From Candidatus Microgenomatus sp. (GTDB taxonomy: Bacteria > Patescibacteriota > Microgenomatia > UBA8517): 64,000 nucleotides of DNA. Below the pieces are notes generated by a model. It was not told the DNA's origin and searched no databases. It worked only from the letters and a program-made list of their open reading frames with translations. Location of the stretch: positions 674,535 to 738,534 of the forward strand of contig DYGS01000001.1 in the NCBI GenBank assembly GCA_020724585.1, read 5' to 3'. Positions 37,163-38,137 of the stretch are shown here, in pieces. The first letter of the stretch is position 1. The number at the start of each line of letters is the position of its first letter. The translations under genes were made by a program, and so were the position numbers.

Positions 37163-38137
37163 TTATACTACAGGTTTACTGCTTTTGTTGTCAACAAGAT
37201 AATTAAGAGCGTCCATGGCGGCCATACAGCCATAACCTGCAGCTGTAATTGCCTGTTTGTAAGTGTGATCATGCACATCACCTGAAACAAAAACCCCCTC
37301 AATGTTTGTCATTGTTGAGTACTTAGTACTTAGTACTTTGTACTTTGTACTTGGGATGATGTATCCCTTCTCATCCATATTTAAAATATCTTTAAAAATT
37401 TGAGTTGATGGGTTGTGCCCTATTGCAACAAACATGCCATCAGTTTTAATTTCAGTTTCTTGATTTGTTTTGTTGTTTTTAATTATAACTTTCTCAAGTT
37501 TCTGCTCTCCAACTATCTTTACAACTTCACTGTCCCAAATAACAGAAATTTTTGGACTATTTAAAACTTTATTCTGCATTATTTTACTTGCTCTAAACTC
37601 TGATCTTCTGTGAATAATGGTAACTTTGGTTGCGTATTTGGTTAATACCAAGGCCTCCTCCATGGCCGAATCGCCGCCGCCAATCACAACCACTTCTTTT
37701 TCTTTAAAAAATGGTGCATCACACGGAGCGCAAGACGAAATACCACGGCCAATCAACTCTTTTTCACCAGAAACTCCAAGCCATTTGGTTTCTGCTCCTG
37801 TTGCAACAATTACAGTGTGTGCTTCAACTGTTGTCCCATCTGTTGTAGTCAATTTAAATGGATGCGATGAAAAATCTACACTTGTAACATTTTGAGGGAC
37901 AAATTCGGCTCCAAATCTAACAGCTTGGGCTTTCATTTTTTCCATTAAACTAGGTCCCATTACCCCATCAGGAAAACCTGGAAAATTGTCAACCTGTGTG
38001 GTTAACATAAGCTGCCCTCCCCAAGACTCTCCCGCTAAGATAACAGTTGAAGCGGCACCCCTTGTTGTATAAATAGCGGCAGTTAGGCCAGCAGGACCCG
38101 ACCCAATAACTGCCACATCATATATTTTACCGTTCAT
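37163..38137 (-). CDS. trxB: Thioredoxin-disulfide reductase
   Basis: 'VIGSGPAGLTAAIY' FAD motif, redox-active 'CAPCD', NADPH motif 'VVVIGGGDSAMEEA'. Contains the in-frame repeat-encoded insertion 'STKYKVLSTKYST'. Confidence 0.9.
   Translation of the reverse strand: MNGKIYDVAVIGSGPAGLTAAIYTTRGAASTVILAGESWGGQLMLTTQVDNFPGFPDGVMGPSLMEKMKAQAVRFGAEFVPQNVTSVDFSSHPFKLTTTDGTTVEAHTVIVATGAETKWLGVSGEKELIGRGISSCAPCDAPFFKEKEVVVIGGGDSAMEEALVLTKYATKVTIIHRRSEFRASKIMQNKVLNSPKISVIWDSEVVKIVGEQKLEKVIIKNNKTNQETEIKTDGMFVAIGHNPSTQIFKDILNMDEKGYIIPSTKYKVLSTKYSTMTNIEGVFVSGDVHDHTYKQAITAAGYGCMAAMDALNYLVDNKSSKPVV

What the first reader, a model, noticed from the sequence alone, without database searches (positions are those of the whole stretch)
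37305..37345. Tandem AGTACTT heptamers inserted in frame in thioredoxin reductase ('STKYKVLSTKYST')
Inside trxB the minus strand reads (AAGTACT)n-like repeats that translate to 'IIPSTKYKVLSTKYSTMTN'. This sits between the NADPH-binding and C-terminal FAD regions. The same heptamer family makes up the 16S insertions and several intergenic tracts. Housekeeping TrxB normally has no such segment. An intergenic-type satellite seems to have expanded inside an essential redox enzyme without breaking the frame.
Basis: seen in the sequence. Interest (0 to 1): 0.65.

Follow-up and report, generated by a model that had tools for sequence, protein, structure and literature searches.

The report
In-frame heptamer repeat inside thioredoxin reductase
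A 35-base run of five 7-base repeats, from a repeat family that also sits in this bacterium's 16S rRNA and spacers, is translated as an extra flexible loop of an otherwise normal thioredoxin reductase, and related bacteria carry different 7-base repeats at the same spot.

Summary
Window 37318-37352 holds five tandem heptamers (minus strand AGTACAA AGTACAA AGTACTA AGTACTA AGTACTC) inside an intact trxB (37163-38137, minus strand). They encode STKYKVLSTKYS.

Most close homologues have an 11-residue loop here (VPKxGSKTNIE). In this gene 42 nt replace 15 nt, which adds 9 residues. AlphaFold models the tip with low confidence.

The tract is collinear with the two arms of a 79-nt hairpin element inserted twice in the 16S rRNA.

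Seventeen of 120 homologues have long loops. The DNA of seven was read: five have a 7-nt array and one an 8-nt array at the same site, with four different heptamer units.

Departures from the unit consensus fall on positions that would otherwise be in-frame stop codons. The array is an island of nucleotide identity between genomes whose flanks have diverged. One long/short pair of near-identical strains differs by a recombination tract.

Best reading: a DNA-level heptanucleotide repeat lodged in a permissive surface loop and selected only to stay open. It is neither an adaptive protein feature nor an artefact.

This is a new variant of known heptameric repeat families. How the unit is homogenised within a genome and changes between genomes is unexplained.

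The parts
37163..38137 (-). trxB, low-molecular-weight thioredoxin-disulfide reductase, 324 aa, intact
   Evidence: ORF. TIGR01292 400 bits against a cut-off of 343. PDB TrxRs at E about 1e-88. Foldseek TM 0.85 to M. smegmatis TrxR 5uth. The redox-active CAPC (C136-C139), GGGDSAMEE and GVFVSGD are invariant in the alignment.
37318..37352 (-). Five tandem heptamers AGTACAA AGTACAA AGTACTA AGTACTA AGTACTC, read in all three codon phases to give STKYKVLSTKYS
   Evidence: TRF period 7, 5.0 copies, 96% matches. Codon view.
37310..37351 (-). 42-nt segment (codons S263-M276) that takes the place of 15 nt (K-x-G-S-K) in short-loop orthologues, a net gain of 9 residues
   Evidence: Nucleotide alignments of L009 vs L010 and L011 vs L012. 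Loop table of 120 homologues. pLDDT below 50 for residues 265-271.
30108..30201 (-). 94-nt insertion at the tip of a 5'-domain hairpin of the 16S rRNA (model position about 80), built of the same heptamers as a long bulged hairpin
   Evidence: cmscan alignment shows *[94]* against 3 model positions. Coordinates. Fold -42.2 kcal/mol, z -8.4.
29905..30003 (-). 99-nt insertion at the tip of a second 16S hairpin (model position about 190). It shares an exact 79-nt block with the first insertion.
   Evidence: cmscan *[99]*. Exact 79-nt block 29912-29990 = 30116-30194. Fold -38.7 kcal/mol, z -6.3. Its arm sequences AGTACAAAGTACAAAG and AAGTACTAAGTACTC recur only in trxB.
22756..22815 (-). Hairpin of the same heptamer family in the spacer between a tRNA gene and the 23S rRNA
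   Evidence: Sequence. Fold -35 kcal/mol, z -5.4.
12354..12407 (.). Tract of AGTACWN heptamers followed by ATAGTAT heptamers, classed as intergenic by my ORF calling
   Evidence: TRF, sequence, ORF context. It overlaps the 5' end of the open frame of the M23 peptidase gene (open frame 11265-12431), so an in-ORF position cannot be excluded.

Best explanation
The tract is a DNA-level heptanucleotide tandem repeat. It belongs to a repeat family dispersed through this Patescibacteria (Woesebacteria-like) genome, and here it lies in the tip of a surface hairpin loop of TrxB just before the GVFVSGD FAD motif. Because 7 is not a multiple of 3, the five units are read in all three phases and give a 7-residue periodic, hydrophilic, probably disordered 9-residue extension. 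The enzyme itself is unchanged.

Selection acts on the tract only to keep the reading frame open. Wherever the unit consensus would put TAA or TAG in frame, that base is altered, and otherwise the units stay alike.

Shown: the array, its family membership, the derived state of the long loop, its presence at the same site with other units in relatives, stop avoidance, and transfer of the long-loop allele between close strains on a recombination tract.

Inferred: the array arose and is renewed by 7-nt slippage or template switching, with only in-frame outcomes surviving. It is also inferred to be kept like the other copies in the genome by conversion against them, and to have no protein-level function.
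For: 1. The long loop is derived. About 97 of 120 closest homologues have a 10- or 11-residue loop, mostly VPKxGSKTNIE, and 17 have 18-27 residues. Solved TrxRs align with an 8-residue gap here.

2. Six of the seven long loops whose DNA was read are made of short tandem units at the same position. Four are five-unit 7-mer arrays in the same register: AGTACWA (window, L009, L011), AGTCAAA (L001), GGTATAG (L003) and CGAATAG (L005). L008 has a CAAAAATT 8-mer. L007 has a 15-nt period and L006 no clean repeat. The encoded peptides are unrelated.

3. Stop avoidance. A pure (AGTACTA)5 would give two in-frame TAA codons. In L009 the only two departures from the consensus remove exactly those. L003 and L005 each change the one in-frame TAG to CAG; L005 does it with a single base change, while both arrays also have a degenerate fifth unit.

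4. Family membership. The 16-mer and 15-mer arm sequences of the 16S hairpin element occur elsewhere in the window only in trxB, and in the same order. L001 and L003 carry their own trxB unit in other genes of the same contig.

5. Permissive site. pLDDT is below 50 at residues 265-271 and no secondary structure is predicted for 260-281. The rest of the protein folds as a TrxR.

6. Nucleotide-level behaviour. Only 1-2 of 13 identical-residue codons differ inside the insert, against 47-54% elsewhere (P 0.001-0.005). The array windows are 82-91% identical against 66-80% in the flanking windows.

7. Recombination. L009 (long loop) and L010 (short loop) are about 99-100% identical until roughly 100 nt before the insert, then 92-94% for more than 2 kb.

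8. Period 7 is specifically enriched in the window. Heptameric repeats are a known over-represented class in bacteria (PMC4692102, PMC4679880).
Against: Local slippage alone does not explain three things. First, the same unit recurs at unlinked loci of one genome. Second, three genomes with diverged flanks keep a near-identical array. Third, 42 nt replace 15 nt, a change that is not a multiple of 7.

Copy number looks stable rather than slippage-prone: there are five units in the window, L009, L011, L001, L003 and L005, and the sequence is identical in independent assemblies.

No read-level or expression data were available. Absence of a protein-level role is inferred from lack of peptide conservation, not tested. 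The loop's solvent exposure was not measured on coordinates.
Confidence: 0.55

Rival explanations
1. Copy of a dispersing element. The trxB tract is a truncated, in-frame copy of the GTAC-heptamer hairpin element seen in the 16S rRNA and spacer. It would have been placed or refreshed by ectopic templated repair or gene conversion, or by an unknown element-specific enzyme. This is analogous to Rickettsia palindromic elements, which insert in frame into genes and RNA genes. Arrays at one site would then track each genome's own master copies.
For: The tract is collinear with the 79-nt 16S element: the left-arm 16-mer and right-arm 15-mer are unique to these three places. The array is an island of identity in diverged flanks. 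The genome's own unit recurs in other genes in L001 and L003. The P0056 loop looks like a chimera of two unit types. The L007 trxB insert shares the 15-mer CCAAATGCTAAATTT with the RecF-like C-terminal array in the window.
Against: No terminal inverted repeats or target-site duplication are visible at the junctions. The tract is only 35-42 nt. No transposase-like gene was linked to it in the ten window ORFs scanned against Pfam. In Pth, arrays replace sequence without any length change and start from a natural seed in the conserved codons ATAGAGAATAG, which points to local slippage. The rRNA genes of the other genomes could not be retrieved to test the master-copy idea.
Confidence: 0.2
2. Functional nucleic-acid signal. 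The array would be a cis element in the trxB mRNA or DNA, either a hairpin or a row of 7-nt binding sites for a factor that also binds the rRNA hairpins. It would tune translation, decay or folding of TrxB.
For: The AGTAC-type tract folds better than every shuffle tested (-17.1 kcal/mol, z -5.0; L009 -17.3, z -4.3) with the same 5-bp/2-nt bulge pattern as the rRNA hairpins. Nucleotide-level conservation exceeds that of synonymous sites elsewhere in the gene.
Against: Arrays of other units at the same site have no fold beyond shuffles (z -0.4 to +0.3 in L001, L003, L005 and L008). Most close relatives lack the tract altogether. No candidate binding protein was identified.
Confidence: 0.1
3. Adaptive protein loop. 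The 9 extra residues would have been selected as a new flexible or interaction surface on TrxB, as proposed for tandem repeats that create disordered regions in Borg proteins.
For: The long loop persists in several lineages, usually at exactly 20 residues, and is hydrophilic. It has spread by recombination into a strain 97% identical to a short-loop strain.
Against: The peptides at the site share no sequence (STKYKVLSTKY, SQKSEIKSQKY, GIGYRVQGTGN, RIANSEQRIEF). What is conserved is the nucleotide periodicity. Residue differences among AGTAC-type loops follow unit variants, for example L/Q = CTA/CAA. The model gives no confident structure for the tip.
Confidence: 0.1
4. Phase-variable contingency locus. 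Gain or loss of one 7-nt unit would switch trxB off and on.
For: The unit length is not a multiple of three, so a single-unit slip would shift the frame. This follows directly from the sequence.
Against: Copy number is the same in the two independent assemblies compared and in L009 and L011. The tract lies at codon 263 of 324, not near the start. trxB sits next to its thioredoxin gene as a housekeeping pair.
Confidence: 0.03
5. Assembly or sequencing artefact.
For: Short repeats can be mis-assembled.
Against: The gene and flanks are identical at nucleotide level in a JGI assembly (644-kb contig, sample 3300029893) and a Logan assembly of SRR5011273. The same array occurs in unrelated samples (L009, L011, L095). 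The ORF is intact.
Confidence: 0.02

Closest known systems
Heptameric simple-sequence-repeat families of bacteria: cyanobacterial STRR heptanucleotides, GGGGA(C/T)T in Nostoc, GGGAATC in Xanthomonas, TAACTGA in Beggiatoaceae, Microcystis and some Bacteroidetes
   Same: Tandem 7-nt units, a few copies per array, many arrays of one unit dispersed in a genome, enriched outside ORFs, and function unknown. Period 7 is specifically over-represented (PMC4692102, PMC4679880; here).
   Different: Here the arrays sit in frame in housekeeping enzymes and at the tips of rRNA helices. Orthologous sites carry different units in related genomes, and the host is a small-genome Patescibacterium. None of this turned up in the literature searches run here.
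Rickettsia palindromic elements (RPE): selfish repeats inserted in frame into protein-coding and RNA genes (Ogata et al. 2000, cited from my own knowledge)
   Same: A dispersed, hairpin-capable repeat is tolerated in frame in essential proteins at permissive surface positions. It also occurs in stable RNA genes.
   Different: RPEs are about 100-150 bp units of one consensus, not arrays of 7-nt units. The tract here is 35-42 nt, with no evidence of transposition, and its unit differs between related genomes.
Tandem repeats in Borg elements that create disordered regions in proteins (PMC9879509)
   Same: Rapidly evolving nucleotide tandem repeats are translated into low-complexity, probably disordered protein segments.
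   Different: From my own knowledge, the in-ORF Borg repeats have unit lengths divisible by three and are proposed to be under selection at protein level. Here the unit is 7 nt, the peptide is not conserved, and only frame integrity appears to be selected.
Phase-variable SSR contingency loci (Haemophilus, Neisseria)
   Same: A repeat with unit length not divisible by three lies inside a gene.
   Different: No copy-number variation was seen. The position is internal and the gene is housekeeping.

Membership tests
Low-Mr thioredoxin-disulfide reductase (TrxB, TIGR01292) | Whole-protein score above the curated equivalog cut-off | tested here: met
   400.4 bits against a cut-off of 343.45.
Low-Mr thioredoxin-disulfide reductase (TrxB, TIGR01292) | Redox-active CxxC in the NADPH domain, plus FAD and NADPH glycine motifs and the C-terminal G-x-F-x-x-G-D motif | tested here: met
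   C136-A-P-C139, G12-x-G-x-x-G17, G153-G-G-D-S-A and G281-V-F-V-S-G-D287 are all invariant in the 46-sequence alignment.
Low-Mr thioredoxin-disulfide reductase (TrxB, TIGR01292) | Two-domain TrxR fold | tested here: met
   AF2 model with pLDDT 79.5. Foldseek TM 0.85, rmsd 2.5 to 5uth.
Heptameric SSR family (STRR-like) | Head-to-tail units of 7 nt, at least 3 copies | tested here: met
   5.0 copies, 96% matches.
Heptameric SSR family (STRR-like) | Several dispersed arrays of the same unit in one genome, far above chance | tested here: met
   Five loci in 64 kb. 31 pattern matches against 1.3 expected.
Heptameric SSR family (STRR-like) | Preference for non-coding DNA | tested here: met
   4 of 13 period-7 arrays lie in ORFs although ORFs cover 81% of the window. 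This copy is one of the in-ORF minority.
Heptameric SSR family (STRR-like) | Copy number varies between strains | tested here: inconclusive
   Five units in six genomes. Loops of 26-27 residues (20 + 7, as if +3 units) exist in P0033, P0080 and P0086, but the one whose DNA was read (L006) shows no clean repeat. No read data.
Rickettsia-type palindromic element inserted in frame | In-frame copies in protein genes and copies in stable RNA genes | tested here: met
   trxB, and 16S rRNA twice.
Rickettsia-type palindromic element inserted in frame | Defined element of about 100-150 bp with one consensus and a palindromic structure | tested here: not met
   The trxB copy is 35-42 nt. Only the rRNA copies are long hairpins of 79-99 nt. 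Relatives have non-palindromic units.
MITE / IS-derived insertion | Terminal inverted repeats and a target-site duplication at the junctions | tested here: not met
   In the L009/L010 and L011/L012 junctions, 15 nt are replaced and no duplication is visible.
Phase-variable contingency locus | Length heterogeneity of the repeat among close strains or reads | tested here: not met
   The gene and flanks are identical at nucleotide level in the two independent assemblies compared (JGI and Logan), and the exact protein is on record on 5 contigs. Same unit number in L009 and L011. Reads were not available.
Borg-type protein-modifying tandem repeats | Unit length divisible by three when inside ORFs | tested here: not met
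   The unit is 7 nt.

The most novel reading that the evidence does not exclude
These Patescibacteria may have a genome-specific process that writes or homogenises short (7-8 nt) tandem arrays at many sites at once. The sites would include rRNA helix tips, spacers and permissive loops of housekeeping proteins, so that the array at an orthologous site carries whichever unit is current in that genome. This implies master copies, perhaps the rRNA hairpins, plus conversion, or a unit-specific trans-acting factor comparable to REP sequences and their RAYT transposases. In that case TrxB, Pth, the Cu-ATPase and the rRNAs would all be passive readouts of one unknown repeat-propagating mechanism.
Probability: 0.15. 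Interest if true: 0.8.

Novelty: new variant of a known kind. Interest (0 to 1): 0.6.

Why it matters
The tract shows that a non-triplet satellite can live inside an essential enzyme for long periods, translated in all three phases, with selection visibly editing only the bases that would create stop codons. It is a compact natural example of DNA-level repeat dynamics constrained by a reading frame.

The same repeat family also extends 16S rRNA helices, which links the long-noted rRNA insertions of candidate-phyla-radiation bacteria to a general repeat process rather than only to introns.

The contrast between one orthologous site and several different units, together with an identity island in diverged flanks, gives a concrete handle on how heptameric repeats arise and are homogenised. 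They are over-represented in many bacteria and their function is still unexplained.

There is also a practical side. Such tracts inflate apparent protein and rRNA divergence and could mislead annotation, primer design and phylogenies in these lineages.

Tried and rejected
- **Assembly artefact:** rejected. The nucleotide sequence is identical in independent JGI and Logan assemblies.
- **Conserved mRNA hairpin:** rejected as a general property. Only AGTAC-type arrays fold; other units have z about 0.
- **Single ancient insertion inherited vertically:** rejected. Long-loop proteins are 88-97% identical to short-loop ones but only 76-84% identical to each other. The NJ tree itself was star-like and poorly resolved, so I rely on pairwise identities.
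- **Recent long recombination tract shared by the window, L009 and L011:** rejected. Identity is raised only over the array. A tract does explain the L009/L010 pair.
- **'TM' after the array as part of the insert:** rejected. A short-loop TrxB has GSTMTNIE (L135).
- **Transposon-like junctions:** none seen.
- **GTAC-heptamer arrays as clade-specific:** rejected. AAGTACN x3 or more occurs in more than 120 genomes of many phyla. Without a control unit I cannot say whether this unit is special.
- **Literature searches for repeats in Patescibacteria:** nothing relevant found.

Full report
**Observation**

The minus strand of window 37318-37352 reads AGTACAA AGTACAA AGTACTA AGTACTA AGTACTC. Tandem Repeats Finder scores it as period 7, 5.0 copies, 96% matches.

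It lies inside a 324-codon ORF, 37163-38137 on the minus strand. That ORF is a bona fide low-Mr thioredoxin reductase:
- TIGR01292 scores 400 bits against a cut-off of 343.
- Solved TrxRs match at E about 1e-88.
- The CAPC redox pair and the FAD and NADPH motifs are invariant in an alignment of 46 relatives.
- An AlphaFold model superposes on M. smegmatis TrxR with TM 0.85.

The thioredoxin gene lies 266 bp upstream of trxB, with one short ORF between them, and a DsbA-like gene follows it.

The unit is far from chance. The two-unit pattern with up to 2 mismatches occurs 31 times against 1.3 expected. Period 7 is the only period between 4 and 13 that gives strong arrays in the window, 6 against 0 in shuffles.

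The finding's coordinates are a few bases off, and the tract lies within the C-terminal FAD-domain segment rather than strictly between domains.

**Relation to the other copies**

The 16S rRNA (28697-30280, minus strand) carries a 94-nt and a 99-nt insertion at the tips of two 5'-domain hairpins. They share an exact 79-nt block. Each folds as a long hairpin of 5-bp GUAC helices separated by 2-nt bulges, at -42 and -39 kcal/mol with z -8 and -6.

A similar hairpin lies in the tRNA-23S spacer, and a heptamer tract lies at 12354-12407.

The left-arm 16-mer AGTACAAAGTACAAAG and the right-arm 15-mer AAGTACTAAGTACTC of the rRNA element occur elsewhere in the window only in trxB, in the same order. 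In trxB the 21-nt apical loop is replaced by TACT. The trxB tract is therefore collinear with that element, not merely similar in unit.

**Comparison with orthologues**

Among the 120 closest homologues, named Candidatus Woesebacteria where a name is given, about 97 have a 10- or 11-residue connection between GYI and GVFVSGD, mostly VPKxGSKTNIE. Seventeen have 18-27 residues. Solved TrxRs align with an 8-residue gap opposite the tract. The long loop is therefore the derived state.

At nucleotide level, in two pairs of close relatives, 42 nt (S-T-K-Y-K-V-L-S-T-K-Y-S-T-M) stand where the short allele has 15 nt (K-x-G-S-K).

AlphaFold gives pLDDT below 50 for residues 265-271 and no secondary structure for 260-281. 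This is consistent with a flexible surface loop. I could not measure exposure on coordinates.

**The same site carries other repeats in other genomes**

I read the DNA of seven long-loop homologues in addition to the window:
- L009 and L011 have a near-identical AGTAC array; only the first unit differs (AGTACTA for AGTACAA).
- L001 has AGTCAAA x4-5.
- L003 has GGTATAG x4.
- L005 has CGAATAG x4.
- L008 has the 8-mer CAAAAATT x4.
- L007 has an AAATGCT-based 15-nt period.
- L006 has no clean repeat.

The 20-residue loops are all five heptamers in the same register after GGN-TAY-RTN plus 6 nt. The peptides are unrelated (STKYKVLSTKY, SQKSEIKSQKY, GIGYRVQGTGN, RIANSEQRIEF). What is conserved is the 7-nt periodicity, not the protein sequence.

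L001 and L003 carry their trxB unit in another gene of the same contig. In L001, AAGTCAA x4 forms an in-frame 8-residue insertion in a Cu-ATPase. In L003, AGGGTAT lies in a membrane-protein gene.

Pth shows arrays of different units at two orthologous sites without any length change. One array starts from the conserved codons ATAGAGAATAG (GIENR), a natural 1.7-unit seed.

**Selection on the tract**

A pure consensus array would be untranslatable. (AGTACTA)5 in this frame gives two TAA codons, and in L009 the only two departures from the consensus are the two bases that remove them. The window has the same two changes.

In L003 and L005 the one in-frame TAG of a pure array is CAG. In L005 this is a single T-to-C change. 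Both arrays also have a degenerate fifth unit.

So the units are held alike except where the frame forbids it. That pattern is expected of a DNA-level repeat under selection only for an open frame.

**History**

Long-loop proteins are not a clade. P0004 is 97% identical to short-loop P0015, P0005 is 96% identical to P0029, P0009 is 93% identical to P0100, and P0002 is 90% identical to P0018. Long-loop proteins are only 76-84% identical to one another.

For L009 and L010 the explanation is recombination. Identity is about 99-100% up to roughly 100 nt before the insert. It then drops to 92-94% for more than 2 kb, and a HAD-family gene just downstream of trxB in L010 is absent from L009.

Among the window, L009 and L011, however, only the array is conserved. 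The 45-nt windows holding it are 82-91% identical, against 66-80% in the windows on either side. Only 1-2 of 13 identical-residue codons differ inside the insert, against 47-54% elsewhere (P 0.001-0.005).

That island needs one of three things: a nucleotide-level constraint, conversion against other copies of the element, or repeated templated acquisition. I could not distinguish these.

**Function**

An mRNA hairpin is predicted for the AGTAC type (z -4 to -5) but not for the other units at the site (z about 0). Structure is therefore not the conserved property.

Copy number is stable across assemblies and genomes, which argues against phase variation. The tract is identical in independent assemblies, so it is not an artefact.

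I therefore favour a passenger repeat in a permissive loop (0.55). A more active copy-and-homogenise process is the main rival (0.2).

**Context in the literature**

Heptameric repeats are known to be over-represented in many bacteria and are mostly intergenic, with families such as cyanobacterial heptanucleotides, Xanthomonas GGGAATC and Beggiatoa TAACTGA. Their function is unresolved, and polymerase slippage has been proposed (PMC4692102, PMC4679880).

AAGTACN arrays themselves occur in more than 120 genomes of many phyla, including genomes with GC 0.66-0.74, often next to inverted partner arrays.

In-frame selfish repeats are known from Rickettsia (my own knowledge), and repeat-made disordered regions from Borgs (PMC9879509).

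My literature searches found nothing on such arrays in Patescibacteria, in rRNA helix tips, or with unit turnover at orthologous coding sites. I therefore rate this a new variant of a known kind.

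Noticed in passing
window 29905-30003 and 30108-30201: The 16S rRNA carries two insertions (99 and 94 nt) at the tips of two different 5'-domain hairpins. They share an exact 79-nt heptamer-hairpin block, as if one element had been copied between helices. Whether they stay in mature rRNA is unknown.
   Followed up: partly
window 20967-20994, 21659-21781, 22099-22214: Arrays of 8-nt units (TTTTGAGT / CAAAATTC types) lie inside the 23S rRNA match, which is 156 nt longer than the model. I did not check whether they are helix-tip insertions.
   Followed up: no
window 17222-30280: The rRNA genes are spread out. 16S and 23S are 6 kb apart, with two tRNA genes and a TraG/VirD4-like ATPase ORF (25492-27618) between them. 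A LAGLIDADG endonuclease ORF (18731-19351) lies between the 23S and 5S genes.
   Followed up: partly
window 48626-48657, 52252-52290, 55364-55390, 55099-55130, 61818-61851: Other in-frame 7- or 8-nt arrays occur in peptidyl-tRNA hydrolase, ATP-dependent DNA ligase, a RecF-like protein (one internal, one forming its C-terminus) and a 5'-3' exonuclease. In Pth and the ligase the arrays overlie variable segments with little or no length change relative to orthologues.
   Followed up: partly
window 59687-61851: Four arrays of a TATGCTN-type heptamer cluster within 2.2 kb, in spacers and gene ends around the Fpg-like and 5'-3' exonuclease genes.
   Followed up: no
L001 8397-8423 and 8876-8902: A Cu-transporting P-type ATPase has two in-frame heptamer arrays. 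AAGTCAA x4 is the same unit as in that genome's trxB. ACGAATT x4 opens a 25-residue insertion just before the GDGxNDxP motif.
   Followed up: partly
L006 4317-4805 (Pth): An in-frame palindromic insertion, GGTCGGACCTT...AAGGTCCGACC, encodes VGPSKDASKGPT at a site where the window's Pth has a different insertion. This is a hairpin-type rather than an array-type insert.
   Followed up: no
P0056, P0020 (L007 2211-3164) and window 55099-55130: The P0056 loop KIVNAKNPSTKYKTMTNIE looks like a chimera of the AAATGCT-type and AGTAC-type arrays. The L007 trxB insert shares the 15-mer CCAAATGCTAAATTT with the array at the C-terminus of the window's RecF-like gene.
   Followed up: partly
L015-L134 (genome-contig scan): AAGTACN tandem arrays of 3 to 15 units occur in over 120 genomes: Bacteroidota, Acidobacteriota, Acidimicrobiia, Planctomycetota, Gemmatimonadota, Verrucomicrobiota and others. 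Some genomes have several such contigs, and many arrays are paired with an inverted array. This includes very GC-rich genomes where the unit is compositionally odd.
   Followed up: partly
L002 and L014 (both from SRR5011273): The window's organism (AGTAC unit in trxB) and the L001-type organism (AAGTCAA unit) occur in the same sequencing run. Relatives with different units at the same site therefore coexist.
   Followed up: no
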